This document shows positions 12,201-33,227 of a stretch of 64,000 nucleotides of DNA, piece by piece. A program made the translations under genes and the position numbers. The stretch is from Thermoanaerobaculia bacterium (GTDB taxonomy: Bacteria > Acidobacteriota > Thermoanaerobaculia > UBA5066), in the NCBI GenBank assembly GCA_036504335.1, contig DASXVJ010000023.1, forward strand, positions 144,389 through 208,388, given 5' to 3'. A model generated the notes under the pieces. That model worked only from the letters and a program-made list of their open reading frames with translations, did not search any database and had not been told where the DNA came from. The first letter of the stretch is position 1; the number at the start of each line of letters is the position of its first letter.

Positions 12201-12215
12201 TCAACCCGAGGTTTC

Positions 12216-13565
12216 ATGAACATCCCGACAAACGTCCTTGCCCTCGTCTTCGTGCTCTCGTTCCTGATCGTCTTCCACGAGGGCGGGCACTTCGCCGTGG
12301 CGAAGTTCTTCAAGTTCCCGGTCGAGATCTTCTCCCTCGGCTTCGGAAAGCGGCTCTTCGGCTGGAAGCGCAGGGAGACGGACTACCGCGTCTCGCTCAT
12401 CCCGCTCGGCGGCTACGTGAAGGTCGTGGGCCTCGGGCCCGACGAAAGCGACATCGTCGCCGGGGAGCATGCGGCGCCCGCGCAGCCCGGCACGCGCCTG
12501 CAGCGCCTCCTCATCCTCTTCGCCGGTCCCGGCGTGAACCTCGTCTTTGCGGTGCTTCTGACCATGGGTGCGTTCATGATCGGGATCGAGCTGCCGCGTT
12601 ACTTCGAAGAGCGGCCCGTCGTGACGTTTGTCGACCCGGGCAGTCCCGCGGAATCCGCCGGGGTCAAGCCCAACGACCTCATCACCTCACTGTTTGGCAA
12701 GCCGGTGACGACATGGCGCGAGGTGGAGTTGCAGACGGGTCTGGGCTCGCGCCAGAAAATCCCGATCGAAGTGCTTCGTGACGGCCAGACGGTCACGCTG
12801 ACGCTTCAGCCGGAGCCCAAGACCGAAGAGCAGAAGAAGTACGACGTCGGGTTCACGGGTCTGCACGCGGCGGTGCCCGTTTACGTCGGCAGCGTGCTGG
12901 CCGGCTCGCCGTCGGCCAAGGCCGGCCTGAAAGTGGACGACCGGATCGTCTCGGTGGGAGGCCACGAAGTGTCGTGCTTCTCTGCGGTGGTCTGGCGCAT
13001 CGCCCAGGAAGCCCAGGACTTCAAGGAGAAAGGCGCGCGGCCGATCGACATCGGCGTCGAGCGAGAGGGGGCGCGGCTGACCATTCCCGTCACCCCGCGC
13101 GCAGAGGGCGCCGCCTGGAGAATCGGGTTTGGCGCCAAGTTTCTCGACACCGTGAGGCGATCCCTCCCGGTAGGGGCCGCCTTTGAGTCTTCGGTGAGAG
13201 AACTGCGGGATCAGGTTCGCGCCACGGGAACCATTCTCGGCCGGCTCTTCGCATTCAAAGGATCTTTCCGACAGCTCTCGGGCCCGATCGACATCGCCAA
13301 GTTCTCCGGGGAAGCCGCCAGGGCGGGCGTCGCCCCGTTGCTGAGTCTCATGGGCGTCCTCTCGCTGCAGCTCGGCCTCCTGAACCTCCTGCCGATCCCG
13401 CTCCTCGACGGCGGCCAGATCTTCGTGACGCTTCTCGAGGCCGCCGCGCGGCGCGACTTCTCGATCAAGGTCAAGGAGCGCCTCCTGCAGGCCGGGTTCG
13501 CGTTCCTCGTCCTCATCATGGTCACCGTCCTCTACTTCGACGTCATCAAGAACGTCTCGTTCTGA
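12216..13565 (+). CDS. rseP: RIP metalloprotease RseP (site-2 protease)
   Basis: HEGGH zinc motif, PDZ domains, and a C-terminal LDGG motif. Confidence 0.9.
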
Positions 13566-14794
13566 TGCCGCGTCCTCGCACGGTCGGCGTGCCCGTCGGA
13601 GGGATCCAGGTCGGCGGCGGCGCGCCCGTGGTCGTCCAGTCCATGTCGAACACGGACACGGCGGACGTGGACGCCACGGTCAAGCAGGGACTCGAGCTCG
13701 CCGAGGCGGGCTCGGAGCTCGTGCGGATCACGGTGAACGTGGACGAGGCCGCGCAGGCCGTCCCGGAGATCAAGCGGCGCCTCCTCGCCGCCGGCTGCGG
13801 CGTCCCGCTCATCGGGGACTTCCACTACAACGGCCACGTCCTGCTGACGAAGTACCCGGAGATGGCGAGGGCCCTCGACAAGTACCGGATCAACCCGGGC
13901 AACGTCGGAACGGGGAAGCGCCGGGACGAGCAGTTCGCGACGATCTGCGGCGTCGCGCGCGACCTCGGGCGGCCCGTGCGCATCGGCGTGAACGGAGGCT
14001 CGCTGAACCAGGAGCTCGTCATGCAGAAGATGCAGGAAAACACGGACCGGGACCTCGGGAGGACGTCGGAGGAGATCGTCGCCGAGTGCATGGTCCTCTC
14101 CGCGCTCCAGTCCACCGAGCTCGCGCTCGAGTGCGGGCTGAGGAAGGACCAGATCATCATCTCGTGCAAGGTGTCGCGCCCGAGCGACCTCGTCGCGGTG
14201 TACCGCGACCTCGCGGCGAAGACGGACCAGCCGCTGCACCTCGGCCTCACGGAAGCCGGGATGGGGACGAAGGGCCTCGTGTGGTCGTCGGCGGCGATGG
14301 GGATCCTCCTCGCCGAGGGCATCGGCGACACGATCCGCGTGTCGCTCACGCCGCGCCCGGGCGGCGACCGGCGCGAGGAGGTCTACGCGGCGTGCGAGCT
14401 CCTGCAGGCGCTCGGGATCCGGAGCTTCGCGCCGTCCGTCACGGCCTGCCCCGGGTGCGGGCGCACGACGTCGACGACGTTCCAGGAGCTTGCCGAGCGG
14501 ATCCAGGGCTACGTGCGCGAGCGGATGCCCGTCTGGAAGGCGGAGCGCGAGGGCGTCGAGACGATGACGCTCGCCGTGATGGGCTGCATCGTGAACGGGC
14601 CGGGAGAGTCGAAGGCCGCGAACATCGGGATCTCGCTCCCGGGCACGGGCGAAGAGCCGAGCTGCCCCGTGTACGTCGACGGCCAGAAGTTCGCGACGCT
14701 CAAGGGCAACTACGACGAGCTCTCCGCCGCGTTCCGGAAGCTCGTGGACGACTACGTCGAGACGAAGTACCCGCGCAAGGGCGCGTCCTCCTAG
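13565..14794 (+). CDS. ispG: 4-hydroxy-3-methylbut-2-en-1-yl diphosphate synthase
   Basis: 409 aa GcpE family. Cluster Cys residues CPGCGRT...[13 protein letters not shown] overlaps the rseP stop (ATGA). Confidence 0.95.
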
Positions 14795-15768
14795 CGTCCC
14801 GAGTCCCCGGAGAAGCCCTTTCGGTCGAAGTGCGTCTTGAGGCGCCGCGAGAGCGCGAGCTGCTTGGCGTAGTTCAGCGAGTAGACCGCGGCCGGGACGC
14901 CGGCCGCGTTGAAGGGCACGGACGCGAGCGCGATCAGGAAGTGCCGCGCCTTCTGCATCGCCGTGAACTCGGGGTTCTTGAAGTCCACGACGGTCGTGTA
15001 GTACTTCCCGAGCATCTTGTAGACGTCCCCGAGGACGTTTGTGAAGCCCATCTCCGTTCCCCACGACAGGCACTCGCCCTCGCGGACGCAGCCGAGGAAC
15101 TCCCTCCACGTCGCGCCGGGCGCCATCGTGAAGACGCTCGCGACGGGCGGGTACGTGTGTGCGTCCGAGCCGCCGATGAGCGCAAGCGAGCCGCGCTTCT
15201 CCTTGGCGGCCGTCAGGAGATCCTCGACGAGCGCATTGTGCTGGTAGGCCATCGAGCCGTTCTTCACTTCGAAGACGTCGAAGAGCTCGAGCATCTTCGT
15301 GAAGAAATCCTCGGGGGCCTGGCGCATGCGGTAGGACTGGAAGAGGTGGTTCGCCGAGTAGAGGAGGCTTTCCGCGCGGAGGTACTCGACGAGGTCGAAG
15401 ATGTTCCGCCTCTTGACGTTGATGACCTTCCACTGCGCGAGCGTGAGGTCGAAGACGTTGACGTGGATGCGGTGGCCGGTCTTCGGGAAGAACGTCTCGA
15501 TCTCGGCCGAGACGAAGAAGTCGGTGTAGTCCGGGTGGCGGTCCCGGAATTTCAGGCAGCCGTCCACGGTGTCGTGGTCCGTGAACGTGACGAAGTCCAT
15601 GCCGCGCGCTTTCGCGAGGCGGTACGTCTCGTCGGGGTCGTTGTAGGAGTCGCGGGTGTTCCCCGCACGGAAGTACTTGAAGATCGAGGCGTTCGTGTGC
15701 AGGTGAAGGTCCGCCCGGGAGAGGGGGAGCGCGGGAGAGCCCGGATCCGGGGCGGCGGAATCGACCAT
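14791..15768 (-). CDS. PHP-domain metal-dependent phosphoesterase
   Basis: [10 protein letters not shown]...FVTFTDHD...GGSDAH matches PHP (polymerase/histidinol-phosphatase) motifs. Start trimmed to MVDSAAPD. Confidence 0.75.
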
Positions 15769-15834
15769 GGGGCGACGAGTCTCCGCGCCTCTCCGGGGCG
15801 AGTCAAGGAGCCGCGCTCCTGCTAGAGTGCCGCC

Positions 15835-16560
15835 ATGGGAGGGGTCTTCGGAAGAGTGCTGTACGCGCTTGTGCTGGCCGGCGTCCTCGCGACCGCGACC
15901 TGGGTCTCGTTCACGCGCTTCGTCGCGGGCAAGTCCCTCAAGACCCCGAGCTTCGTGAGCCTCACGCCCGACGAGGCGGCCGCCCGCGCCGCCGAGCTCG
16001 GCCTTTCCGTGCAGGTGGACGCGGCGCAGGAGGCGTTCGACGACGCCGTGCCCGCGCACCGCGTCCGCGCGCAGCTCCCGGCGGCCGAGACGGCCGTCAA
16101 GAGCGGCCAGACGATCCGCCTCTTCCTCTCCCTCGGGCCGCGCGCCGTGCGCATGCCCGACCTCACGGGGCTGCCGGCGCGCGCGGCGACGCTCGCGCTG
16201 GCGAAAGCCGGCCTCAAGGAGGCCGCCGTCGCGTCGGCGCGCCTGCCGGGGCCCACCGGCGTCGTCGCCCAGGGCGTCTCGGCGGGCGCGATCGCGGGGC
16301 CGGACACTCCGGTCGACGTTCTCGTGAACCGCGGAGCGTCCGACGTCGCGTGGGTGATGCCGGACCTCATCGGGCGCGACTTCGAGCGGGTCAGGACCGC
16401 CTTCGAGGAGCGCGGCTTCCGGATCGGCGGCGTGAGGAGCCAGGCCTACGAAGGCGCGGCGACCGGCACGATCCTCCGCCAGTTCCCGCTTTCCGGGGCG
16501 CCCGTCACGCGGCGCGACGCACTGAGCTTCGTGATCGCGTCGCCGGAGGCGGCGCCGTGA
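15835..16560 (+). CDS. PASTA-domain protein (membrane-anchored, 3 PASTA repeats)
   Basis: N-terminal transmembrane helix, then three repeats of about 65 aa containing PDLTGL and PDLIGR motifs typical of PASTA. Confidence 0.6.
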   Translation: MGGVFGRVLYALVLAGVLATATWVSFTRFVAGKSLKTPSFVSLTPDEAAARAAELGLSVQVDAAQEAFDDAVPAHRVRAQLPAAETAVKSGQTIRLFLSLGPRAVRMPDLTGLPARAATLALAKAGLKEAAVASARLPGPTGVVAQGVSAGAIAGPDTPVDVLVNRGASDVAWVMPDLIGRDFERVRTAFEERGFRIGGVRSQAYEGAATGTILRQFPLSGAPVTRRDALSFVIASPEAAP

Positions 16561-22254: not shown

Positions 22255-22863
22255 ATGATAGCCGCGATGCTGGCCCGGACCTTTCTCAGCCTCGTCGAGA
22301 AGGTCACCGAGGACCTGGACGTCGAGAAGCTCCGGGCCGAGGTGCAGTCGTTCTCGGCGAAGCACGCGGACCTCACGACCCGCGAGAAGGGCGAGCGGCT
22401 CGTCGCGGTCGCCGCCCGCCGCGCGGCCGCCTTCGGCGCCGCCGCGAGCCTGCCGCCGGGATGGCTCTCGCTCGCGACCGTCGCGCCCGAGCTCTCGGCG
22501 GTCCTCGTCCTCCAGAGCCGGCTCATCGTGTCGCTCCACCTTCTTTACGGAGGCCCCATGACGCCCGAGGAGCGGGCGCTCGAGGTGCTTGCGGGGCTCG
22601 CGGCGGGGGCCGGGATGAGCGTCGGGCGGCGCCTGACGACGCGCGCGGCCGAAGAGGTCGCCGCGCGCCTCGTCGTCCGTCTCGCCGGACGCGAGCTCGC
22701 TCACGTCGTTCCGGTCCTCGGAGCGCTCGCAGGCGCGGGCCTCAACTACGTGGCCGTACGCGCCGTCGGACGCGCGGCGCTCGCGCGCATCCAGCGCCTG
22801 CACGGTCCGCCCGAGATCCCCGGGAAGGGAGCCGTTCTCGACGTTTCCGGGCGGGTCGAGTAA
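22255..22863 (+). CDS. Hypothetical protein (EcsC/DUF697-like)
   Basis: Coding-like GC3. Start trimmed to MIAAMLARTF; the N-terminal part of the track ORF is junk. Confidence 0.5.
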   Translation: MIAAMLARTFLSLVEKVTEDLDVEKLRAEVQSFSAKHADLTTREKGERLVAVAARRAAAFGAAASLPPGWLSLATVAPELSAVLVLQSRLIVSLHLLYGGPMTPEERALEVLAGLAAGAGMSVGRRLTTRAAEEVAARLVVRLAGRELAHVVPVLGALAGAGLNYVAVRAVGRAALARIQRLHGPPEIPGKGAVLDVSGRVE

Positions 22864-22960
22864 CGTCGCACGCGGCGCGTGTTAAATTCCCCGCTTCACG
22901 GGCCATCCGTTGAGAATGATTCTCCTCGGGGGCGGGGCCGTGTATCTTCGGAGGATCTAC

Positions 22961-24847
22961 ATGCGGAAGGTGGTCTACAGGTCCATTCGCGGTGCGGCCA
23001 ACACCGCCTGGAACGTGTTCCAGGCCGTGAACCGCCGCGTGCCCGCGCGTTCCTTCCAGCCCTCCTGGTCGCCCGAGCCGCTCCCGAAGAGCCACGAGCG
23101 CACAAAGCCGCCTCTCGGGTTCCCGCGCCGCACGGACTCCCTCTGCCCGACCTGCACCCGGGAGGTCCGCGATGCGATCGTGGGCGGCACGCGTGAGCTC
23201 TCGGAGCTCATCGACGGTCGCCCCGGCGAGATCCCGGCCGACATCGTCCAGCGCGGCAACGAGATCTGGATGGTCAAGACGTGCCCGAAGCACGGCACGT
23301 TCGAGGACCTCATGGCGAGCGACGCGCGCTTCTTCGCACGCCTCGAAGAGAACTTCTTCGGCCGCGACGTGAGGATCGCGAAGGACAAGCTCCACGACCA
23401 CGGCTCCTCCTCGATGCGCTACGGCCGCGGCGCGGTCCTCACGGTGGACCTCACGAACCGCTGCAACATGATGTGCAACCCGTGCTTCATGGACGCCAAC
23501 CAGGTCGGCTACGTGCACGAGCTCGGGTGGGACGACGTCAAGGAGATCCTCGACAACGCCGTCTCGATCAAGCCGCAGCGCCAGATGTCCGTGCAGTTCT
23601 CGGGCGGCGAGCCCACGATCTCGCCGTTCTTCATCGAGGCCACGCGCTACGCCCGCGAGATCGGCTACTTCTCGGTCCAGTGTGCGACGAACGGAATTCG
23701 CTTCGCGCAGGAGCCGGAATTCGCGAAGGCCGCGTACGACGCGGGGCTCCGGCTCGCGTACCTCCAGTTCGACGGCGTCGGAGACGAGGCCAACGAGCAC
23801 CGCGGCGTCGGGAACCTCTACGACGTGAAGCTCCGGGCGCTCGCCAACCTCCACGCGGCGGGGATCGACGTCACGCTCGTCACGACGATCGTGAACGGCG
23901 TCAACGACGACCAGGTCGGCCCGACCCTGAAGTTCGCGATCGAGAACATCGACAAGATCAACGCCCTCTCGTTCCAGCCCGTGTCCTTCACGGGCCGCGA
24001 CGAGGAGATCGACGACGAAACGCGCACGAAGCAGCGCTATACGCTCGCCCATCTCGCGCACGACGTGAAGGACCAGGCCGGCATCGGCGAGCCGATGCGC
24101 GACTGGTTCCCGCTGTCGGCCTCGGGCCCGTTCTCGGACCTGAAAGACCTCCTCGGCGGCCTCGAGGCGCAGTGGGGCTCGCTCAAGTGCGGCTGCCACC
24201 CGAACTGCGGGATCGCGACGATGATGCTCGTGCGCCCGGACACGGGACAGGCCGTGCCCCTGACCCAGATCGTCGACGCGGACCGCCTGCTGCGCGACCT
24301 CACCGTCGTCACGGACGCCGCGCGCGGAAAGTTCCTGACGGTCCTCCAGACGGCGCTCGCTCTCGCGCGCAACATCCGTCCCGAGGGCGTTCCCCACAAC
24401 CTCGGCGTCTGGGAGACGCTCAAGGTCATGGACGGCCACACGGGCAAGGGCATGGGGATCGCGAAACAGGGCCGCTATCCGTGGCGCGTCCTCCTCGTGG
24501 CCGGGATGTGGTTCCAGGACCTCTTCAACTACGACTTCCGGCGGACGGAGATGTGCATCATTCCGTACGGAACGCAGCTCGGCGAGATCTCGTTCTGCGC
24601 GTACAACACCGGCGCGGGATGGCGGAAGATCGTCGAGGAGATGCACCAGAGCGCGACGCTCTCCGAGTGGTACAAGGACAAGGGCCGCCACCCCGTGTAC
24701 GCGCACGGCAAGCGCGTGCCGCTGCCCGCGTTCAACCCGGGGGCGCGCCCGTCGACGCTGCCGGTCTACGAGCCCGCGGCCGCCCGCACGGGCGACCTCC
24801 CGGCCGCCGCGATGCTTCCGAGCTTCGGCGCCGCTTCCGGGAAATAG
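22961..24847 (+). CDS. Radical SAM enzyme with N-terminal Zn-ribbon and C-terminal Cys/His-rich extension (function unknown)
   Basis: CNMMCNPC is a Cx3Cx2C motif in LTVDLTNRCNMMCNPCF. N-terminal CPTC...CPKHG treble-clef. C-terminal CGCHPNCG. GGAGGA Shine-Dalgarno 6 nt upstream of ATG 22961. Confidence 0.8.
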   Translation: MRKVVYRSIRGAANTAWNVFQAVNRRVPARSFQPSWSPEPLPKSHERTKPPLGFPRRTDSLCPTCTREVRDAIVGGTRELSELIDGRPGEIPADIVQRGNEIWMVKTCPKHGTFEDLMASDARFFARLEENFFGRDVRIAKDKLHDHGSSSMRYGRGAVLTVDLTNRCNMMCNPCFMDANQVGYVHELGWDDVKEILDNAVSIKPQRQMSVQFSGGEPTISPFFIEATRYAREIGYFSVQCATNGIRFAQEPEFAKAAYDAGLRLAYLQFDGVGDEANEHRGVGNLYDVKLRALANLHAAGIDVTLVTTIVNGVNDDQVGPTLKFAIENIDKINALSFQPVSFTGRDEEIDDETRTKQRYTLAHLAHDVKDQAGIGEPMRDWFPLSASGPFSDLKDLLGGLEAQWGSLKCGCHPNCGIATMMLVRPDTGQAVPLTQIVDADRLLRDLTVVTDAARGKFLTVLQTALALARNIRPEGVPHNLGVWETLKVMDGHTGKGMGIAKQGRYPWRVLLVAGMWFQDLFNYDFRRTEMCIIPYGTQLGEISFCAYNTGAGWRKIVEEMHQSATLSEWYKDKGRHPVYAHGKRVPLPAFNPGARPSTLPVYEPAAARTGDLPAAAMLPSFGAASGK

Positions 24848-25652: not shown

Positions 25653-27110
25653 TTAGCGGCCGGCGGCGGGCACGACCCGCCACTCCGCGTCGCCGGCGTT
25701 TCCGGCCGGCCGTGTCCTCTCCTTCACGAAGGCGTAAACGGCCGTCTCGCGAATACGCTCGACGTCGGCGATCGGCTCACGGAAGAGGATCGGCAGGCCT
25801 GGGCTCGCCGCGAGAGCGTCCACGAGCCGCTCGTTGCCGCGGTCGCGCCTCAGGCAGTACCAGAAGGACGGGTTCACGTAGAAGCGGCCGGGTGCGCCCG
25901 TGCCGGTGAGAGGGTAGAGGTTCTGCAGCGCGCCGTGGACGAGAAGCGTGCCTCCGGCGGGAACGCGCTCTCTCACGAGCGCCGCGGCGGCCCGGCTCGC
26001 CGAGTCGTCCCAGTAGAAGACGGGCCCACCGGCCCGGTCGAGGAGCAACGGCCCCGCGCCGAGCGCGGCGACGGCGAGGAAGACGGCACACGCTGCGGCG
26101 CCGCCGGCGGCCCCGAAAAGGCGAAGAGGTCCGCCCCGGCCTTTCCGGAGCCGGCGGAAGACGACGGGCAGAACGAGGGCGAGCCGGGCGGCCGCGAGCG
26201 CGCCGAGCCCCGTCAGGGCCGCGAGGTGCAGGAGGCCGGGACGCGGCCAGGCCATCCCGACTGCGCCGAGCGCGACCGCCGCGAGCGGCGAGCGCAGACG
26301 GCGCGCCGGCAGCGCCGCGGCAGAGAGGCCGAGCGCGGCGAACGGCACGAAGAGCACGAGCGCCTCGTGCGCGTCCGCCCCGGTGAGCCGGACGGCGATC
26401 TCCCGCGACATCCCGGAGAAGACGGGGTAGATCAGCGTCCAGGCGAGGTGCCGAGTCGTCCGGAACGCAAGGGCCCACGAGAGCGCGAAGCCGAGGTAGG
26501 GAAGAGCGGCCGCTGCGCCGAAGAGAAGCGCGGCGCGCCGCCGGCCGCGCAGAGCGACCCACAGGAGCGCGGCGAGCGCCGCCCACGCCGAGGTCTGTTT
26601 GACGAGGATCCCGGCGCCGAAGACGAGGCCCGCGGCCGCGACGTCGCCGAGCGCACCGGTGCGTTCGTGGCGCTCCAGGAGGAGGACGCCCGCGAGAAGG
26701 AGGGGCGCGAGGAACGGCTCGGGCCAGATCGCGGGACCTTCCGCGTAGACGGTCAGGAGCGCGAGGACGGGGACGCCGAGCGCGAGCGCGGCCCGCGGGC
26801 CCGATCGTGCTCGGCGGTGCGGGCGCGTGCCGAGCACGACGAGGCCGCCCGCCGCCGCCAGCGAGAGGGCCGGGATCGCGCGCAGGACGTTCGGGGTGAA
26901 GCCGAACAGGGCGCCGGCGGCGGCCGTCAGGAGAATCAGGAGAGGCGTGTGCGGAAAGAGGATCCCGTCATAGAGCCTGACGCCGCGCGTCACGAACCAC
27001 GCGGGCGTGACGATCTCCGGCCAGGCCGTGACCGACACGACGAACGGGAGCGCACCCGCGAGAAGGGCCGCGAGCGCGGCGATCGGGGCGGCCGCGCGCG
27101 CCCCTCTCAC
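25653..27110 (-). CDS. Polytopic membrane protein, GT-C-like glycosyltransferase/DUF2029-like
   Basis: Roughly 12 predicted TM helices. GTG start overlaps the stop of the upstream gene (GTGA). Confidence 0.6.
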   Translation of the reverse strand: MRGARAAAPIAALAALLAGALPFVVSVTAWPEIVTPAWFVTRGVRLYDGILFPHTPLLILLTAAAGALFGFTPNVLRAIPALSLAAAGGLVVLGTRPHRRARSGPRAALALGVPVLALLTVYAEGPAIWPEPFLAPLLLAGVLLLERHERTGALGDVAAAGLVFGAGILVKQTSAWAALAALLWVALRGRRRAALLFGAAAALPYLGFALSWALAFRTTRHLAWTLIYPVFSGMSREIAVRLTGADAHEALVLFVPFAALGLSAAALPARRLRSPLAAVALGAVGMAWPRPGLLHLAALTGLGALAAARLALVLPVVFRRLRKGRGGPLRLFGAAGGAAACAVFLAVAALGAGPLLLDRAGGPVFYWDDSASRAAAALVRERVPAGGTLLVHGALQNLYPLTGTGAPGRFYVNPSFWYCLRRDRGNERLVDALAASPGLPILFREPIADVERIRETAVYAFVKERTRPAGNAGDAEWRVVPAAGR

Positions 27111-27484
27111 TCGGGCCGGTACGTCACGCTGTTGCGCGGGCCCTCCCAGACCGTGACCTCTTCGAGCCGCGCGCCGTCCCCGAGGAGCGCCGCCTTCCCG
27201 ATCTCGTCCGCGACCCAGAGCGCGACGTTCTCGGCGCTCGCATTCCTGCGGTCGAACGGCGGCACGGTGTTGAGGTCGCGGTTGTGGAGGCGCGAGGCGA
27301 GCTCTCTGACGAACGCTTCCGTCGGCACGAAGTCGACGGCGAGGCCGTACGGGCCGAGGCGATCGACCGAGAGCGCGACCTCGATCTTCCAGGAGTGGCC
27401 GTGCACGGGCTCGGGGCCGCCGACGTAATCCACGAGATGGTGCGCGGCCTCGAAAGTCGCGTGGCAGCGGACGGTCCAGCGCAT
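27107..27484 (-). CDS. 6-pyruvoyl-tetrahydropterin synthase family protein (QueD-like, catalytic Cys not conserved)
   Basis: FEAAHHL...PVHGHSWKIEV is the PTPS Zn-binding HGH motif. The Cys normally 4 residues before HGH is Pro (GGPEPVHGH). Confidence 0.75.
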   Translation of the reverse strand: MRWTVRCHATFEAAHHLVDYVGGPEPVHGHSWKIEVALSVDRLGPYGLAVDFVPTEAFVRELASRLHNRDLNTVPPFDRRNASAENVALWVADEIGKAALLGDGARLEEVTVWEGPRNSVTYRPE

Positions 27485-27518
27485 GGCCGCCAGTCTACGA
27501 CGCGTGGAACGGCCGCGC

Positions 27519-29174
27519 TCAAACGGTTTCGAGGTAGCGGTGCACGACGCCGACGGCGCCGGAGCCCTCGCCGACGGCCGCGGCGACTCTCTTGCCCGAG
27601 CCCGCGCGCACGTCGCCGGCGGCGAACACTCCCGGAACGCTCGACTCGAAGAGGAACGGGTCCCTCTCGAGCGTCCAGCCGCGGGGCCGCCGGCCCAGGG
27701 GCGTCAGATCGGGCCCGGTCACGACGAAGCCCGCCTCGTCGATCTCGAGGAACCCGGCGACCATCTCGGTCTGCGGCCTTGCACCGATGAAGATGAACAT
27801 CGCCGCCGCGTCGAGCTCGCGCTCGTCCCCCCCGGCGAGGCGGCGGACGACGATCTTCTCGAGCCGGCCGTCGCCCCGAACTGCGCTCACTTCGACGCCC
27901 GGCACGACGTCGATGTTCGGCGTCGCCTCGATCCGGTCGATCAGGTAGCGGGACATCGACTTGGCGAGGGAGTCCGCGCGGACGAGCATCGTGACGCGGC
28001 GCGCGTAGCGGGAGAAGAAGAGGGCTCCCTGGCCGGCCGAGTTCCCCGCGCCGACGACGCACACGTCCCGGCCACGATAGGTCGCGGCCTCGGTCATCGC
28101 CGCACCGTAGTAGACGCCGATCCCGAGGAGCGCCTCGGAGCCGGACGTCTCCAGCTTCCGCACGGCGACGCCTGTGGCCAGGACGACGGCGTAGCAGCTC
28201 ACGTCGGTCCCGTCGGCGAGCCGGGCGACGCGATACGGGTCCTCGCGGCGCAGGCTGACGACCTCCTGGGCGATCACCTCGGCGCCGAAGCGCCGCGCCT
28301 GGGTCGTGGCGCGGCGGGCGAGGTCGGCCCCGGATACGCCCGACGGGAAGCCGAGGTAGTTCTCGATCCTCGAGCTGGTGCCGGCCTGGCCGCCGGGCGC
28401 GCTCTGCTCGACGAGGGCCGTGCGCAGCCCCTCCGACGCTCCGTAGACCGCCGCGGCGAGGCCCGCCGGGCCTCCGCCGACGATCAGCAGGTCGTAGAAA
28501 GGCAGGCGCGCCTTCGTCTGCATCCCGGTCTTCTCCGCGAGCTCGCGGCTCGTCGGAGCGGCCAGGAACGTGCCGTCCGGGAAGAGGACGACGGGGAGCT
28601 TCGTCTCGGCGCCGAACGAGCGGATCAGCTCCCGGGTCGACGGGTCCTGGTCGACGTCGATCCACTGGTAGGGGATCTGGTTGCTCGACAGGAATTCCTT
28701 CACCGCGAAGCTGCGAGGCGACGACTGCGCGCCCGCGACCCGGATCCCTTCGTAGGGAAGGCGCACGTGCGCCGTCCAGTCGGACAGCAGGTCGTCGAGG
28801 ACCGGGTAGAGCCGCTCGGCGGGAGGGTCCCAGGGCTTCAGCAGGTAGTGATCCAGTCCGACGTCGTTGATGCCGGAGATCGCGGCCTGCGTGTCCGCGT
28901 ACGCCGTGAGGAGGACCCGGCGCGACTCGGGGTGAAGCTTGATCGCCTCGCGCAGGAATTCCGTGCCCGACATCATCGGCATCCGCTCGTCGGCGAGGAA
29001 GAGCGCGACCGGAGTTCCGCGCTGCTTGAGCTGGCGGGCGGCCTCGAGCGCTTCGCCCCCGGACACGGCCTTCAGGATGCGGTAGTCGCTCCGGTAGTGC
29101 TGCTTGAGGTCGCGCTCAATGGCGCCGAGCACCTCGGGGTCGTCGTCGACCGTCAGGATCACCGGTTTGGCCAT
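27519..29174 (-). CDS. Response regulator: REC domain fused to a Cys-less glutaredoxin-like linker and a thioredoxin-reductase-like FAD/NAD(P) oxidoreductase lacking the CxxC
   Basis: N-terminal REC (ILTVDDDPEVL...FLADERMPMMSG...LKP). Then GGGPAGLAAAVY (FAD GxGxxG) and VVGAGNSA (NAD). The TrxR CATC position reads YYGAAMTEAA. Confidence 0.8.
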   Translation of the reverse strand: MAKPVILTVDDDPEVLGAIERDLKQHYRSDYRILKAVSGGEALEAARQLKQRGTPVALFLADERMPMMSGTEFLREAIKLHPESRRVLLTAYADTQAAISGINDVGLDHYLLKPWDPPAERLYPVLDDLLSDWTAHVRLPYEGIRVAGAQSSPRSFAVKEFLSSNQIPYQWIDVDQDPSTRELIRSFGAETKLPVVLFPDGTFLAAPTSRELAEKTGMQTKARLPFYDLLIVGGGPAGLAAAVYGASEGLRTALVEQSAPGGQAGTSSRIENYLGFPSGVSGADLARRATTQARRFGAEVIAQEVVSLRREDPYRVARLADGTDVSCYAVVLATGVAVRKLETSGSEALLGIGVYYGAAMTEAATYRGRDVCVVGAGNSAGQGALFFSRYARRVTMLVRADSLAKSMSRYLIDRIEATPNIDVVPGVEVSAVRGDGRLEKIVVRRLAGGDERELDAAAMFIFIGARPQTEMVAGFLEIDEAGFVVTGPDLTPLGRRPRGWTLERDPFLFESSVPGVFAAGDVRAGSGKRVAAAVGEGSGAVGVVHRYLETV

Positions 29175-29177
29175 CCC

Positions 29178-30572
29178 TCAGCCCTTTCCTGCGTCGAGAG
29201 GGAGCGTCACGCGGAACTCGGTGCTCCCGGGGCGCGAGTCGGCCTCGATCTCTCCCTGGTGTTTGCGGACGATGCGCCGCGCGATGTCGAGGCCGAGGCC
29301 GGTGCCCTGGCCGACCGGCTTCGTCGTGAAGAACGGATCGAAGATGCGCTCCCGGATCTCCGGGGGCAATCCAGGCCCGTCGTCGACGACGCGCACGACG
29401 ACGGACGGGCCCTGGCGCGCCGCCGAGACGTCGACGCGGCCCTTGGCCGCGTCGAGCGCGTTGTCGACGAGATTCGCCCACACCTGGTTGAGCTCGCCCC
29501 CGAATCCCGGGATGCGCGGGAGGTCGGCCGGGGCGTCGAGGCTCACGCTCACGGACTTGCCGCGGGCCTTCGCGTTCAGCACGGCGAGCGTGTCGGCCAG
29601 CCCCTGGCGGACGTCCACCGGTTTGGGCATGGTGGCCTGGTCCATGTACGTGAAGCCCTTCACCGCCGCGACGAGATTGTGGATCTTCGTCGCGGAGGCC
29701 TCGATCTCGGACGCCAGCCGGTACGTCCCGCAGCCGGCCACGAGCCAGGGGAGGGTCGCCCGGAGAGCCTCGGCGTCGAGCGCCCCGGCGAGCTCGTCGA
29801 GGGATTCGAGAGTGACCGCGGACTCCGCGAGCGCCTCGGCGGCGGTGACGTCGGCGCCGTGACGCGAGAGCCAGCCGGCGAGGGCGTCTTCACGATCCGC
29901 CTGCTCGATGGGAGAGCGCCCGAACGTCGCGCCGGCCGCGAGCTGGCAGAGATTGCGCGCCCGGTCCACCGAGGCCCGCTGGGCCTCGGTGAGGCGGGCG
30001 GCGCCGAGCGCGCGGGACGCCGTTTCGAGCTCCGACAGCCCGAGCCGGAGTCCCTTGGCGCTCCGGGCGACCGCCGACGCCGGGTTATTCAGCTCGTGCG
30101 CGAGCCCCGCCGCCAGCTTGCCGAGGGAGGACATCCTTTCTTCGTGAAGGTCGCTCGACGTGAACTGGCGGGCGCGGTCGACCATGACGTGCACGAAGAT
30201 CGCGGTGAGGTCGTAGCAGTCGCGAATCAGCTCGGGGATCTCCTTGCGCGGGATCACGAGGATTTCCGTCGGCGCCTCGGCCTTCACGTCGCCCGGCGAC
30301 CCGGCGAGACGCGAGTACGGCAGGACGCCGCTCACGTCACCGCCGCGCCACTCCATGACCTTGTGGGGCCCGGCGCCCCGGTCGACGTAAATCGACAGGT
30401 GGCCCGAGAGGATGATGTAGAGACCCAGCACCGCATTGCCCTTGGCCGAGAGGACGTCTCCGGTCTCCAGCTTGACGAGGTGGCCGCGGGCGGCGAGCCA
30501 GGCGAGCTGGTCGGAAGGGGCGCCGGCGAGCAGCCGGTGCGCGGACAGACGATCGAGGATCGAACTCTCCAT
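29178..30572 (-). CDS. Cytoplasmic sensor histidine kinase with N-terminal cyclic-nucleotide-binding (CAP-like) domain
   Basis: H-box GLAHELNNP, N-box NLVDNALDA, G1 VVDDGPGLP, G2 GTGLGLDI. N-terminal roughly 120 aa has a cNMP-binding fold. No TM segment. Confidence 0.85.
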   Translation of the reverse strand: MESSILDRLSAHRLLAGAPSDQLAWLAARGHLVKLETGDVLSAKGNAVLGLYIILSGHLSIYVDRGAGPHKVMEWRGGDVSGVLPYSRLAGSPGDVKAEAPTEILVIPRKEIPELIRDCYDLTAIFVHVMVDRARQFTSSDLHEERMSSLGKLAAGLAHELNNPASAVARSAKGLRLGLSELETASRALGAARLTEAQRASVDRARNLCQLAAGATFGRSPIEQADREDALAGWLSRHGADVTAAEALAESAVTLESLDELAGALDAEALRATLPWLVAGCGTYRLASEIEASATKIHNLVAAVKGFTYMDQATMPKPVDVRQGLADTLAVLNAKARGKSVSVSLDAPADLPRIPGFGGELNQVWANLVDNALDAAKGRVDVSAARQGPSVVVRVVDDGPGLPPEIRERIFDPFFTTKPVGQGTGLGLDIARRIVRKHQGEIEADSRPGSTEFRVTLPLDAGKG

Positions 30573-30581
30573 GGTGAGAGT

Positions 30582-33227
30582 TTATGCGCCGAGGACGGTT
30601 TCGAGCCGCGTCACGCGCACGGCGTGCTGGCCCTCGGGCGGGACGCCGTATTCTTTCTCGAGGAATTTCTTCGGCGTCGTGGCGGTCGCTCCCATGAGCG
30701 AGAGGCGCTCTTCGCGCGTCTCGCCGTTCGGAAGCGTAAACGCGTAAACGGCCTCCGTCACGGCCCTTCCGAGCGACTTCGCGCCCTTCGGGAGCTCGAC
30801 AGAGGACGTGATCACGAGGCCCGGAGGGAGCCGGTCGTTCACGGCGGAGACGTGGGCGTCCGTCAGCGCGTCGAGGACGTCCACGTCGAAGAGCTCGTGT
30901 TTCGACTCGTGCCCGAGCGGAAGGGCCGGACCCATCGACAGGCGCAGGTGCGGGTTGTAGCCCTCCGTGTAACGCACGGGCGCGCCCGAGGCGCGCAACG
31001 CGCGCTCGAGGACGTCCATCGTGTTGCGGTGCGAGAGGTACCGCGCGTCGCCGAGCTTCTCGAACGAGAGGCGGTACGTCCGCGCGGACTCCGGCACGGG
31101 AGCCGCGACGCCGCTCGCGGGCGAGCGGCGCTCACGCAGCGGGAGAAGATCCGGCGTCGACTTCATGCGGTATGCCGCGCCCTTGGCTTTTTCGGTATAG
31201 GCGGAGGGGAGGGGAAAAGACTCTTCTGCTGAAGAAGAAGAGGGGAGAAGAGTTTCTTCGAGTGATTGTGAGGGCGATGCGCCCGCGCCCTGCGCAGGCG
31301 CGACGGGCAACGCCCCGCCGCCGAGGCTGCCTCTCTTACCTTCTAAGAAATCCGAATCCGAATCCGAAGCAAAATTGAATTCCTTCGGCAGCGGATTCGC
31401 GAGGACGATGTCCTCGCCGTTGCCCGGGACGCCGCAGGCGTAGCAGTGCCCCCACTTGCAGTCGTCCGTGTGCATCTCCTTGAGCGCCTTCTTCCACTCC
31501 ACGACGAGGAAGGGCTTGCGGATGGACGCGTCGACGACGTCCCAGGGGAGCGTCTCCTTGAGGTCCTTGTCGCGGAGGTGGCGGAACTTCGGGACGCCTG
31601 CGGCCTCGAGCGCCTCCGTCCAGCGCTCCCACGAGAAGTGCTCGCTCCACGCGTCGAAGCGTCCGCCCCTCTTCCACACGTCGAGGACGGCGCGGCCCAT
31701 CCGCCGGTCGCCGAGCGAGAGCATCGCCTCGATCTCGGCTTCCTTCGGCTCGTGCCACGTCATCTTCGCTCCCTTGACGGAGCGGAAACGGTCCTTCAGG
31801 TACGCGATCTTCCGCGAGAGGTTCTCGACGCCGTCGAACCCGAACCACTGGAAAGGCGTGAAGCTCTTCGGGATGAAGCAGCCGACCGAGACGTTCACCT
31901 GCGGTCTCACGCCGTGCCTGCGGCCCTGGGCGAGGATGTCCTTCACGAGCGTCACGAGCTCGTCGAGGTCCGGGTCGGTCTCCGTCGGGAGGCCGATCAT
32001 CGTGTAGACCTTGATCATGTCCCAGCCGCGCCCGAAGGCGACGTCGGCGGCCTGGACCATGTCGGCGTTCGTGAACGTCTTGTTGATGACGCGGCGGAGG
32101 CGGTCCGAGCCGGTTTCGGGCGCGAACGTGAAGCCGGACTTGCGCACCTCCGAGACGGCATCCGCGAGCGCGACGGAGAAGGCTTCGGCGCGGAGCGAGG
32201 GGAGGGAGATCGACACCTTCGTCTTCGCGAGCTCGGGCGCGAGGCACGCGACGAGCGGCTCGATCTGCGAGTAGTCCGCCGAGGAGAGCGAGAGGAGCCC
32301 GACCTCGCTCCAGCCCGCCTCGTCGATGAACGCCTTCGTCGCCTTCGCGACGTCGGCGGGGTCCAGCTCGCGCACGGGGCGGTACCAGTAGCCCGCCTGG
32401 CAGAACCGGCAACCCTGCGTGCAGCCGCGCATGATCTCGAGGCCGAGGCGGTCCTGGACGATGTCCACGGACGGGACCATGGGCTTTGCGGGATAGACGT
32501 CGGCCGAGAGCTTCTCCACCCAGACCCGCTTGACCTCTGCGGGAACTCCAGCCGTGTTCGGCGCGTACGCGGCGACACGATCCTCGTCATACGTCACGTC
32601 GTAGAGCGACGGGACGTAGATCCCCGGGCAGGCGGAGAACGCGAGGAGGCGCTCGCGGCGGGGGAGGCCCTTCGTCCGCGCGACGGCCCCGAGGAAAACG
32701 GGCAGCGCTTCCTCCGCGTCGCCGATCAAAAAGGCGTCGAAGAAATCGGCGAGGGGTTCGGGATTCGCGACGCAGGGGCCGCCGCCGATCACGACGGGGT
32801 GCGCGTCGCCGCGGTCCGCCGCGAGGACGGGGATCCCCGCGAGGTCGAGCATGTTCGGGACGTTCGTGTAGTTCATCTCGCTCTGGAGCGAGAGGCCGAA
32901 GACGTCGAAATCGCCCACGGGGGCGAAGGACTCGACGGAGAAGAGCGGGACCTTCTCCCGGCGCAGGACCGCCTCGAAGTCCGTCCACGGCGCGTACGTC
33001 CGCTCGCAGGCCCAGGCCGCGCGGCGGTTCACGATCTCATAGAGGATCTTCGTGCCCGTGTGGCTCATCCCGATCTCGTACGCGTCCGGGAAGCCGAGGC
33101 AGACCGTGACGTCCATCGCGCCGAGATCCTTGCGCACGACGTTCCGCTCCAGGCCGAGATAGCGCCCGGGGCGCTCGACGGCGAGGAGGAACGGCTCGAA
33201 GCGGGGGCGGACGGATGCGTAGCGCAA
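30582..33227 (-). CDS. Fused B12-binding radical SAM protein (TIGR03960-like) and DUF2344/TIGR03936-like C-terminal domain
   Basis: B12-binding N-terminus followed by a CxxxCxxC-type motif (CTQGCRFCQAGYWYRP). Ser/Asp/Glu-rich low-complexity linker. C-terminal DUF2344-like roughly 230 aa. TTG start at 33227 gives LRYASVRPRFEPFLLAVERPGRYLG, matching family N-termini; the upstream 290 aa of the track ORF are junk. Confidence 0.8.
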   Translation of the reverse strand: MRYASVRPRFEPFLLAVERPGRYLGLERNVVRKDLGAMDVTVCLGFPDAYEIGMSHTGTKILYEIVNRRAAWACERTYAPWTDFEAVLRREKVPLFSVESFAPVGDFDVFGLSLQSEMNYTNVPNMLDLAGIPVLAADRGDAHPVVIGGGPCVANPEPLADFFDAFLIGDAEEALPVFLGAVARTKGLPRRERLLAFSACPGIYVPSLYDVTYDEDRVAAYAPNTAGVPAEVKRVWVEKLSADVYPAKPMVPSVDIVQDRLGLEIMRGCTQGCRFCQAGYWYRPVRELDPADVAKATKAFIDEAGWSEVGLLSLSSADYSQIEPLVACLAPELAKTKVSISLPSLRAEAFSVALADAVSEVRKSGFTFAPETGSDRLRRVINKTFTNADMVQAADVAFGRGWDMIKVYTMIGLPTETDPDLDELVTLVKDILAQGRRHGVRPQVNVSVGCFIPKSFTPFQWFGFDGVENLSRKIAYLKDRFRSVKGAKMTWHEPKEAEIEAMLSLGDRRMGRAVLDVWKRGGRFDAWSEHFSWERWTEALEAAGVPKFRHLRDKDLKETLPWDVVDASIRKPFLVVEWKKALKEMHTDDCKWGHCYACGVPGNGEDIVLANPLPKEFNFASDSDSDFLEGKRGSLGGGALPVAPAQGAGASPSQSLEETLLPSSSSAEESFPLPSAYTEKAKGAAYRMKSTPDLLPLRERRSPASGVAAPVPESARTYRLSFEKLGDARYLSHRNTMDVLERALRASGAPVRYTEGYNPHLRLSMGPALPLGHESKHELFDVDVLDALTDAHVSAVNDRLPPGLVITSSVELPKGAKSLGRAVTEAVYAFTLPNGETREERLSLMGATATTPKKFLEKEYGVPPEGQHAVRVTRLETVLGA
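31333..31350. repeat. Copy (18/19) of the low-GC CTCTT(C)ACCTTCTAAGAAA motif
   Basis: ctcttaccttctaagaaa; encodes DFLEGKRG on the minus strand. Confidence 0.5.
31351..31368. repeat. Tandem hexamer (TCCGAA)x3 in the inter-domain linker, encoding SDSDSD
   Basis: Direct reading tccgaatccgaatccgaa. Confidence 0.6.

What the first reader, a model, noticed from the sequence alone, without database searches (positions are those of the whole stretch)
22961..24847. Radical-SAM enzyme with N-terminal treble-clef Zn-ribbon and C-terminal CGCHPNCG extension
The cluster motif is Cx3Cx2C (CNMMCNPC). It is preceded by about 140 aa containing CPTC...CPKHG and followed by about 250 aa containing a CGCHPNCG motif. 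The architecture is neither SPASM-type nor B12-type. This architecture is reminiscent of lipid-modifying radical-SAM enzymes such as archaeal/bacterial tetraether-synthase (Tes)-like proteins. That comparison is a hypothesis only. The gene sits next to a GT-C membrane protein and a hydrolase.
Basis: inference. Interest (0 to 1): 0.55.

Follow-up and report, generated by a model that had tools for sequence, protein, structure and literature searches.

The report
Bacterial tetraether-synthase homolog missing one cluster
This gene encodes a bacterial relative of the archaeal enzyme that welds two membrane-lipid tails together. It keeps the catalytic core but has lost one of the three iron-sulfur clusters, so it is a candidate, still untested, maker of membrane-spanning lipids in soil Acidobacteria.

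Summary
The AlphaFold model matches 7TOM/7TOL with TM 0.87 and matches no other solved fold beyond the generic radical-SAM core.

It is not a canonical Tes. It scores 327 bits against NCBI's Tes model (cutoff 450). In 111 of 111 clade members the CX3CX2C that binds the N-terminal [4Fe-4S] cluster is deleted. That motif is invariant in 119 archaeal Tes.

These elements are retained and invariant:
- the rubredoxin-like site C62/C65/C108/H111
- the radical-SAM cluster C168/C172/C175
- the catalytic C-terminal cluster ligands C416/C532/C546/M516
- Y536

The clade also carries its own signature: C410, C412, seven conserved His, and Met-Trp and Pro-Tyr where Tes has Met-His and His-Tyr.

The clade is widespread in Acidobacteriota and Myxococcota, including cultured Sorangium. 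No gene neighbour is conserved across phyla, and the adjacent GT-C and hydrolase genes are convergent and not linked.

The most likely function is radical C-C coupling of lipid tails. This is unproven. Bacterial Tes homologs are already known in the literature, so I class this as a new variant of a known kind.

The parts
22950..22955 (+). Shine-Dalgarno-like GGAGGA, 5 nt upstream of the ATG
   Evidence: Read directly from the sequence.
22961..24847 (+). Tes-like radical-SAM gene, 628 aa plus stop
   Evidence: The JGI gene call is identical.
22964..23032 (+). Clade-specific N-terminal cationic amphipathic helix (aa 2-24), part of a 53-aa extension that MJ0619 lacks
   Evidence: AF2 predicts a helix at pLDDT 88-96. 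The hydrophobic moment is about 0.6 and the extension is mapped.
23126..23320 (+). Rubredoxin-like / Zn_ribbon_HMPTM domain (aa 56-120). Ligands C62, C65, C108, H111 correspond to MJ0619 C9, C12, C33, H36. It carries a 22-aa insertion (aa 68-89).
   Evidence: Pfam PF23545, E 2.6e-16. Ligands are 100% conserved. Insertion mapped.
23378..23434 (+). Degenerate N-terminal auxiliary-cluster loop (aa 140-158). The archaeal C73-X3-C77-X2-C80 is replaced by K143...H145-D-H147-G-S-S150, and the loop is 5 aa shorter.
   Evidence: Alignments. The Cys are absent in 111/111 clade members and present in 119/119 archaeal Tes.
23435..24085 (+). Radical-SAM core (aa 159-375) with CX3CX2C at nt 23462-23485. The GGE motif (G215-E217) and the SAM contacts F176, Q339, S342 are conserved.
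   Evidence: Pfam PF04055, E 2e-21. Invariant columns; residue mapping.
24086..24730 (+). C-terminal auxiliary-cluster and lipid-pocket domain (aa 376-590). C416, C532, C546 and M516 correspond to MJ0619 C338, C455, C470 and Met439. Y536 corresponds to Tyr459. C410 and C412 are clade-specific.
   Evidence: Invariant in the 85-sequence alignment A1. Mapping.
24188..24211 (+). CGCHPNCG motif (aa 410-417). Only C416 and H413 are shared with archaeal Tes.
24731..24844 (+). Variable, predicted-disordered C-terminal tail (aa 591-628)
   Evidence: pLDDT below 50. Not conserved in homologs.
22255..22863 (+). Upstream co-directional EcsC-family gene (202 aa), 97 nt before the Tes-like gene. This is the only plausible operon partner.
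   Evidence: Pfam EcsC. JGI gene call. Found upstream in 13-17 related loci of the same class only.

Best explanation
The gene encodes a bacterial member of the Tes/GDGT-MAS radical-SAM superfamily. It belongs to a distinct, highly conserved clade found in Acidobacteriota and Myxococcota.

Inferred mechanism, by homology with MJ0619:
1. The CX3CX2C [4Fe-4S] cluster (C168/C172/C175) reductively cleaves SAM.
2. The 5'-deoxyadenosyl radical abstracts H from the terminal carbon of a lipid alkyl tail held in a hydrophobic tunnel.
3. The first substrate radical is parked as a C-S adduct on the C-terminal [4Fe-4S] cluster (C416/C532/C546, with labile M516).
4. A second SAM generates a second tail radical, which attacks the adduct and forms a C(sp3)-C(sp3) bond.

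In a bacterium, the expected product is a membrane-spanning diacid or tetraester/tetraether lipid of the iso-diabolic-acid or brGDGT type.

Unlike archaeal Tes, this enzyme would run on three metallocentres rather than four. It would have the rubredoxin-like Fe, the RS cluster and the C cluster, because the surface N-terminal [4Fe-4S] site has been deleted.

Shown here: homology, fold, ligand conservation and loss, and clade distribution. Inferred: the substrate, the product and the mechanism.

The confidence of 0.5 refers to the lipid tail-coupling function. Confidence that the protein is a Tes-superfamily homolog lacking the N-cluster motif is above 0.95.
For: Homology and fold:
- NCBIfam Tes model, E 2e-97, covering aa 58-563.
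- 7TOL, E 8e-68.
- AF2 model with pLDDT 85 and pTM 0.87.
- Foldseek TM 0.87 to 7TOM/7TOL, with nothing else above 0.67.

Catalytic residues:
- The RS Cys, the GGE motif, and F176/Q339/S342 (equivalent to the 5'-dAH contacts F106/Q268/S271) are conserved.
- C416, C532, C546, M516 and Y536 are invariant across 85 bacterial and archaeal sequences.
- Ligand identities are taken from PMC9433317.

Other support:
- dN/dS of 0.12-0.18 indicates purifying selection.
- The N-terminal amphipathic cationic helix is compatible with membrane association.
- The clade occurs in Vicinamibacteria, Blastocatellia and a MAG labelled Solibacteraceae. These belong to acidobacterial subdivisions reported to make iso-diabolic acid (PMC13159169).
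- Bacterial Tes homologs have been proposed, and correlated in cultures, with iso-diabolic tetraester and brGDGT production (PMC8941075, PMC10087280; Chen et al. 2025 as cited in PMC13023045).
Against: - No member of this clade has been tested. A 2025 paper states that bacterial Tes homologs are not experimentally confirmed (PMC11868695).
- The protein scores 327 bits, below the 450-bit Tes cutoff.
- The [4Fe-4S]N ligands are missing.
- Residues flanking the catalytic Met and Tyr differ systematically from every N-cluster-bearing Tes (Met-His to Met-Trp, His-Tyr to Pro-Tyr, invariant Asp290 to His364). There are seven clade-specific conserved His. The active site is therefore remodelled and the substrate may differ.
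- The clade is present in Sorangium at about 60% identity. To my knowledge, Sorangium is not reported to make membrane-spanning lipids.
- No lipid-biosynthesis gene is a conserved neighbour.
Confidence: 0.5

Rival explanations
1. The protein is a Tes-fold radical-SAM enzyme that acts on a hydrophobic substrate but does chemistry other than intermolecular tail-to-tail coupling. Examples would be intramolecular macrocyclisation, cross-linking or modification of a different lipid class, or a non-glycerolipid substrate.
For: - The active-site neighbourhood is systematically remodelled relative to all N-cluster-bearing Tes: W517, P535, H364 and seven clade-specific His.
- The N cluster is lost.
- The score is sub-threshold against the Tes model.
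- In the rough NJ tree, the nearest sister group (P0246, P0247, P0271) has lost even the C-cluster Cys, so the lineage is functionally labile.
- The clade is present in taxa not known for membrane-spanning lipids, such as Sorangium.
- MJ0619 itself makes both macrocyclic archaeol and GDGT (PMC9433317).
Against: The RS cluster, the C-cluster ligands, the labile Met and the Tyr are all retained and invariant. The whole four-domain fold, including the lipid-pocket domain, is kept. No alternative substrate is suggested by gene context.
Confidence: 0.33
2. The protein is a pterin methyltransferase (7,8-dihydro-6-hydroxymethylpterin dimethyltransferase, HMPTM), as some JGI annotations of homologs state.
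For: Several homologs carry this name in JGI. The Pfam domain is named Zn_ribbon_HMPTM. A PTPS/QueD gene lies 2.3 kb away.
Against: The HMPTM assignment of MJ0619 could not be reproduced. The structure shows a narrow hydrophobic lipid tunnel that is incompatible with a pterin (PMC9433317). The nearby PTPS gene is on the other strand. A QueC gene is present elsewhere in the window, so the PTPS gene is plausibly QueD of queuosine synthesis.
Confidence: 0.02
3. The protein is a SPASM/twitch-type peptide or cofactor maturase (PqqE-, AnSME- or mycofactocin-like).
For: Weak NCBIfam hits to NirJ, AhbC/D, MftC and PqqE, restricted to the radical-SAM core at aa 155-370.
Against: All these hits are far below their cutoffs (for example PqqE 38.8 vs 381 bits). 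There is no SPASM Pfam hit. The C-terminal domain aligns with the Tes C domain rather than a SPASM domain. No precursor-peptide or RRE gene lies nearby.
Confidence: 0.02
4. The gene is a decaying, non-functional relic of a Tes gene acquired from archaea.
For: One cluster-binding motif has been lost.
Against: dN/dS is 0.12-0.18. Identity is 56-94% across two phyla, with all remaining ligands invariant. The ORF is intact and has an SD sequence.
Confidence: 0.02

Closest known systems
Archaeal tetraether synthase Tes / GDGT-MAS (MJ0619, PDB 7TOL/7TOM; MA_1486; NCBIfam NF045702)
   Same: - Same four-domain fold (TM 0.87).
- Rubredoxin-like CX2C...CX2H site.
- CX3CX2C RS cluster and SAM contacts.
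- C-terminal cluster with 3 Cys plus a labile Met, and the conserved Tyr.
   Different: - Only 30-33% identity and 327 bits against a 450-bit cutoff.
- The [4Fe-4S]N CX3CX2C motif is deleted.
- 53-aa N-terminal and 43-aa C-terminal extensions, and a 22-aa insertion in the rubredoxin-like domain.
- C410 and C412 added.
- Met-Trp and Pro-Tyr in place of Met-His and His-Tyr, and His364 in place of the conserved Asp.
- The host is bacterial, so the substrate cannot be assumed to be archaeol.
Canonical-type bacterial Tes homologs (reported at 40-42% identity to MA_1486 in Ca. Koribacter versatilis and Ca. Solibacter usitatus; PMC8941075)
   Same: Both are bacterial Tes-superfamily proteins proposed to make membrane-spanning lipids.
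   Different: In the 50%-identity representative library, the proteins that keep the N-cluster Cys score 432-593 bits to the Tes model and are no more than 37% identical to this protein. The taxonomy of those representatives is not given. I therefore infer, but have not shown, that the Koribacter and Solibacter proteins belong to that group. This protein's clade is separate in the rough NJ tree.
Mss, bacterial membrane-spanning lipid synthase (Thermotoga, Thermoanaerobacter; PMC13159169)
   Same: It is a radical-SAM enzyme that couples two fatty-acyl tails, which is the function proposed here.
   Different: The literature describes Mss as only remotely related to Tes and found in anaerobes. 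I did not have its sequence, so no direct comparison was made. The present protein is clearly of the Tes type.
TrsS radical SAM (seleno)protein (NF045646)
   Same: It shares the rubredoxin-like domain and the RS core (209 bits over aa 90-374).
   Different: The score is far below the 490-bit cutoff. The C-terminal domain matches Tes, not TrsS.

Membership tests
Tes / GDGT-MAS (NF045702, IPR034474) | Radical-SAM CX3CX2C cluster motif and SAM-binding residues | tested here: met
   C168/C172/C175, the GGE motif 215-217, and F176, Q339, S342 are conserved.
Tes / GDGT-MAS (NF045702, IPR034474) | N-terminal rubredoxin-like site CX2C...CX2H (MJ0619 C9, C12, C33, H36) | tested here: met
   C62, C65, C108, H111 are 100% conserved in the clade. 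Pfam PF23545.
Tes / GDGT-MAS (NF045702, IPR034474) | N-terminal auxiliary [4Fe-4S] cluster ligated by C73, C77, C80 plus a His | tested here: not met
   The three Cys are absent in the window protein and in 111/111 clade members. They are present in 119/119 archaeal Tes. H145 and H147 remain in the shortened loop.
Tes / GDGT-MAS (NF045702, IPR034474) | C-terminal [4Fe-4S] cluster with 3 Cys plus labile Met439, and conserved Tyr459 | tested here: met
   C416, C532, C546, M516 and Y536 are invariant in alignment A1.
Tes / GDGT-MAS (NF045702, IPR034474) | Whole-protein fold of 7TOL/7TOM | tested here: met
   Foldseek E 2e-37, TM (target-normalised) 0.87, 539 aligned columns. Model pLDDT 85.
Tes / GDGT-MAS (NF045702, IPR034474) | Score at or above the curated equivalog cutoff (450 bits) | tested here: not met
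   326.7 bits. Controls: MJ0619 scores 744, and N-cluster-bearing representatives score 432-593.
Tes / GDGT-MAS (NF045702, IPR034474) | Catalyses tail-to-tail C-C coupling of membrane lipid chains | not testable with these tools
   This needs expression or deletion followed by lipid analysis. No clade member has been tested in the literature I could search (PMC11868695).
SPASM/twitch radical-SAM enzymes (PqqE, AnSME, MftC) | C-terminal SPASM/twitch Cys-rich domain and family-level HMM score | tested here: not met
   No SPASM Pfam hit. PqqE scores 38.8 vs 381 and MftC scores 52.7 vs 265.
B12-binding radical-SAM enzymes | N-terminal cobalamin-binding domain | tested here: not met
   No B12-binding Pfam domain. 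The N-terminus is a rubredoxin-like domain.
TrsS (NF045646) | Score at or above 490 bits over the full profile | tested here: not met
   209 bits, and only profile positions 13-296 are matched.
Mss (bacterial MSL synthase) | Sequence similarity to Tmari_0825 / WP_129545148.1 | not tested

The most novel reading that the evidence does not exclude
This N-cluster-less clade is a 'three-metallocentre Tes' and is the so far unidentified membrane-spanning-lipid synthase (iso-diabolic-acid or brGDGT type) of many Acidobacteriota (Thermoanaerobaculia, Vicinamibacteria, Blastocatellia, Polarisedimenticolia) and of Polyangia. At 30-33% identity to archaeal Tes, it sits at the edge of the >30% identity / E<1e-50 filters used in brGDGT-producer surveys and so may be under-counted there. 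If so, the list of candidate source organisms for brGDGT palaeoclimate proxies would need to be widened. The surface [4Fe-4S]N cluster of Tes would also be shown to be dispensable for C(sp3)-C(sp3) coupling.
Probability: 0.35. Interest if true: 0.8.

Novelty: new variant of a known kind. Interest (0 to 1): 0.45.

Why it matters
Branched GDGTs are among the most widely used terrestrial palaeotemperature and pH proxies, yet the enzymes and organisms that make them are still unsettled. Bacterial Tes homologs are leading candidates but remain uncharacterised.

This analysis does three things:
- It separates a large, strongly conserved bacterial clade from canonical Tes.
- It shows that the clade keeps the catalytic cluster but has lost the N-terminal cluster and has a remodelled active site.
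- It identifies cultured carriers (Sorangium strains) in which the function could be tested genetically.

If the clade does couple lipid tails, two things follow. It shows which Tes cofactors are essential, and it widens the set of suspected brGDGT or iso-diabolic-acid producers. If it does not, it warns against inferring tetraether production from 'Tes hits' in metagenomes.

Tried and rejected
- **Gene context as a functional clue.** tblastn of 18 window neighbours, plus de novo clustering of neighbours in 80 related loci, found only class-level synteny (PPIase-EcsC/ThiO-Tes-like). No neighbour is conserved across phyla. The GT-C gene was found in 0 of 80 loci and the hydrolase in only 10 close relatives.
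- **The upstream FAD oxidoreductase in relatives.** It proved to be ThiO, the thiamin-pathway glycine oxidase, so it gives no lipid link.
- **Isolated lipid-type neighbours.** A fatty-acid desaturase in L037 and PlsC-like genes in Sorangium loci are each confined to a single lineage.
- **Looking for a named Solibacter usitatus or Edaphobacter ortholog.** A third homolog search, using L037 as query, returned only unnamed MAG proteins and a Luteitalea sp. protein. Whether proven brGDGT producers carry this clade remains open.
- **Testing whether C410/C412 lie next to H145/H147 as a replacement metal site.** The structure tool returns no coordinates. In the rough tree, the C410/C412 pair also occurs in N-cluster-bearing representatives (P0272, P0292). 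It is therefore not simply a compensatory gain.
- **Regulatory and RNA scans.** The promoter/terminator scan around the gene gave nothing above shuffles. Rfam gave no hit in the whole window.
- **Literature search for a characterised bacterial Tes.** One query was swamped by noise. The Chen et al. 2025 GCA paper, cited in PMC13023045, is not held.
- **An initial miscount.** My first residue count for Met439 and Tyr459 in the PDB alignment was off by one. It was corrected with full-length MJ0619 (P0121).
Full report
**1. The observation**

The region 22961-24847 (+) is a single ORF of 628 codons starting at ATG. A GGAGGA sequence lies 5 nt upstream. A TTG 51 nt further upstream is in frame, but homologs of exactly 628 aa and the JGI gene call on the source contig support the ATG. 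The source is JGI metagenome 3300035523, contig Ga0376481_000053, 357 kb.

Third-position GC is 0.94 in a window of about 70% GC. dN/dS against close relatives is 0.12-0.18. The gene is therefore real and under purifying selection.

- CPTC at aa 62-65
- CPKHG at aa 108-112
- CNMMCNPC at aa 168-175
- CGCHPNCG at aa 410-417

The protein has only 12 cysteines.

**2. What it is**

Pfam finds Zn_ribbon_HMPTM (aa 55-120) and Radical_SAM (aa 164-326), and nothing of the SPASM or B12 type. The best NCBIfam model by a wide margin is NF045702, 'tetraether lipid synthase Tes'. It aligns end to end (aa 58-563; E 2e-97; 326.7 bits) but falls below the curated 450-bit cutoff.

The only strong match among solved structures is GDGT-MAS (Tes) from Methanocaldococcus jannaschii, 7TOL/7TOM, at E 8e-68. 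BLASTP identity is 30% to MJ0619 and 33% to a Methanosalsum Tes.

An AlphaFold2 model built on an 85-sequence alignment is confident (pLDDT 85, pTM 0.87). It superposes on 7TOM/7TOL with a target-normalised TM-score of 0.87 over about 539 columns. The next hits (MoaA, viperin, HydE) share only the radical-SAM core.

**3. Metallocentre by metallocentre**

Lloyd et al. (PMC9433317) describe four metal sites in MJ0619:
- a rubredoxin-like Fe (C9, C12, C33, H36)
- a surface N-terminal [4Fe-4S] cluster (C73, C77, C80 and a His)
- the RS cluster
- a C-terminal [4Fe-4S] cluster with three Cys and a labile Met439, near a strictly conserved Tyr459

The C-terminal cluster carries the C-S lipid intermediate.

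I aligned the window protein with 110 close homologs and 119 archaeal Tes, with representatives of the whole superfamily, and in alignment A1. The results:

| Site in MJ0619 | Window protein | Conservation |
|---|---|---|
| Rubredoxin-like C9, C12, C33, H36 | C62, C65, C108, H111 | conserved in both groups |
| RS cluster | C168, C172, C175, plus GGE motif | conserved in both groups |
| 5'-dAH contacts F106, Q268, S271 | F176, Q339, S342 | conserved |
| C cluster C338, C455, C470, Met439 | C416, C532, C546, M516 | invariant in all 85 sequences of A1 |
| Tyr459 | Y536 | invariant in all 85 sequences of A1 |
| N cluster C73-X3-C77-X2-C80 | absent | see below |

The N-cluster motif is invariant in the 119 archaeal proteins. 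It is absent from the window protein and from all 111 members of its clade. The loop is 5 residues shorter and reads K143-L-H145-D-H147-G-S-S150. On sequence grounds, the N-terminal auxiliary cluster cannot form as it does in Tes.

**4. A distinct clade with its own signature**

A scan of 1.84 billion 50%-identity representatives gave 505 clusters at E<=1e-30. In their alignment and in a rough NJ tree, every protein that keeps the N-cluster Cys is no more than 37% identical to the window protein. Those proteins score 432-593 bits to the Tes model, and MJ0619 scores 744. The window clade scores 299-327 bits.

Features specific to the clade:
- C410 and C412
- Conserved His at 145, 147, 186, 280, 364, 493 and 577. 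Position 364 is an almost invariant Asp elsewhere.
- Trp517 after the catalytic Met, where other Tes have His
- Pro535 before the Tyr, where other Tes have His

The C410/C412 pair also occurs in two N-cluster-bearing representatives (P0272, P0292). An N-less intermediate (P0242) also carries the pair. The pair therefore probably predates the loss of the cluster rather than compensating for it.

The sister group (P0246, P0247, P0271) has additionally lost the C-cluster cysteines.

Relative to MJ0619, the window protein also has:
- a 53-aa N-terminal extension containing a confidently predicted cationic amphipathic helix (aa 2-24)
- a 22-aa insertion in the rubredoxin-like domain
- a 43-aa C-terminal extension, mostly disordered

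**5. Distribution and context**

More than 8000 database proteins match. The best 120 are at least 65% identical, and those that carry a name are mostly labelled Thermoanaerobaculia or Acidobacteriota.

In one-genome-per-species GTDB contigs there are at least 572 relatives. The best 80 come from:
- Thermoanaerobaculia (64-90% identity)
- Polarisedimenticolia
- Vicinamibacteria
- Blastocatellia
- a MAG labelled Solibacteraceae
- many Myxococcota/Polyangia, including complete genomes of cultured Sorangium strains (about 60%)

Gene order is conserved only within the class: PASTA-BamD-...-PPIase-(EcsC and/or ThiO)-Tes-like. No neighbour is conserved across phyla.

The hydrolase is retained only in 10 close relatives, and the GT-C gene was found in none of the 80 loci. 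Only the EcsC-family gene (22255-22863) is co-directional.

The rest of the window holds ordinary housekeeping genes. These include uppS-cdsA-rseP-ispG and a PlsB-like acyltransferase 17 kb away. There is no dedicated lipid-modification cluster.

**6. How it most likely works**

The fold and every residue tied to Tes chemistry are retained. These are the RS cluster, the SAM contacts, and the C cluster with its labile Met and the nearby Tyr. The best-supported mechanism is therefore the Tes mechanism:
1. Two sequential SAM cleavages take place.
2. Each abstracts H from a terminal carbon of a lipid tail.
3. The first radical is stored transiently as a C-S bond on the C-terminal cluster.
4. A C(sp3)-C(sp3) bond then forms.

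This follows PMC9433317 and the review PMC13459092. In a bacterium the product would be a membrane-spanning lipid of the diabolic or iso-diabolic type. This is what Zeng et al. (PMC8941075) and Halamka et al. (PMC10087280) proposed for bacterial Tes homologs. The enzyme would work without the surface N cluster, which in MJ0619 is only suggested to tune redox potentials or relay electrons.

I put about 0.5 on this function. The main rival, at about 0.33, is a related but different radical reaction on a hydrophobic substrate. Three observations motivate it: the remodelled active-site neighbourhood, the sub-threshold HMM score, and the clade's presence in organisms not known for membrane-spanning lipids. 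The pterin-methylase annotation, a SPASM-type maturase and a decaying pseudogene are each effectively excluded (PMC9433317).

**7. What is known, and novelty**

Bacterial Tes homologs are well documented:
- 456 were found in IMG genomes (PMC8941075).
- Lloyd et al. noted them in a sequence-similarity network.
- 281 Black Sea MAGs carry them (PMC11868695).

Their activity was still described as unconfirmed in 2025 (PMC11868695). A 2026 paper cites culture correlations between a Tes homolog and iso-diabolic tetraesters in Koribacter (PMC13023045, citing Chen et al. 2025, which I could not read).

In the papers I could search, I found no statement that a major bacterial clade lacks the [4Fe-4S]N site or carries the signature described above. 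This absence of evidence comes from a limited library.

One practical point follows. PMC13023045 reported no Tes homolog in the family Thermoanaerobaculaceae using a >30% identity / E<1e-50 filter. Proteins of this clade sit at 30-33% identity, so such filters are at the edge of detecting them.

**8. Verdict**

The protein is a new variant of a known kind. It is a Tes-superfamily enzyme that fails two Tes membership criteria (the N cluster and the HMM cutoff) but retains the catalytic core. Interest is moderate at 0.45. The family and the brGDGT hypothesis are already in the literature, but the clade definition, the cofactor loss and the cultured carriers make the open question more directly testable.

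Noticed in passing
window 27519-29174 (-) and 29178-30572 (-): A 551-aa fusion of a response-regulator receiver domain, a glutaredoxin-like segment and a thioredoxin-reductase-type flavoprotein. It lies directly downstream of a histidine kinase that has an N-terminal cyclic-nucleotide-binding domain. This is an unusual two-component output.
   Followed up: no
related loci L009-L031, L044, L048, L082 (about 1.0-1.3 kb upstream of the Tes-like gene): A ThiO glycine oxidase gene (303 bits, above cutoff) sits immediately upstream and co-directional in 21 relatives. It is missing from this position in the window and its closest relatives L001-L008, where EcsC abuts the Tes-like gene.
   Followed up: partly
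proteins P0246, P0247, P0271 (representative library): A sister group of the window clade, 37-41% identical. It keeps the rubredoxin-like site and the RS motif but has lost both the N-cluster and the C-cluster cysteines. It scores 220-251 bits to the Tes model. Its function is unknown.
   Followed up: partly
L037 11875-12849 (+); L081 5228-7548 and 10073-11569: In one MAG, a fatty-acid desaturase-family gene lies directly downstream of the Tes-like gene. In another, two MacB/FtsX permease genes lie upstream and a GMC (cholesterol-oxidase-like) oxidoreductase lies downstream. Each arrangement was seen in one or a few lineages only.
   Followed up: partly
window 9374-14794 (+): The standard uppS - cdsA - (gap, probably dxr) - rseP - ispG block. 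A QueC gene lies at 7150-7950 (-) and a PTPS/QueD gene at 27107-27484 (-).
   Followed up: no
window 14791-16059 (-): A 422-aa protein with only a weak CehA/McbA (PHP-type) metallohydrolase match. Homologs at 31-35% identity lie directly upstream of the Tes-like gene in five more distant loci (L025, L028, L029, L033, L035).
   Followed up: partly
window 41724-43148 (-): A short (474 aa) PlsB-like glycerol-3-phosphate acyltransferase, 131 bits and far below the PlsB cutoff. It is the only other glycerolipid-acyl gene noticed in the window besides cdsA.
   Followed up: no
whole window: No Rfam family reaches its gathering score anywhere in the 64 kb. Very long spurious antisense ORFs occur opposite real genes, as expected at 70% GC. 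An example is 27483-31232 (+), 1249 aa.
   Followed up: no
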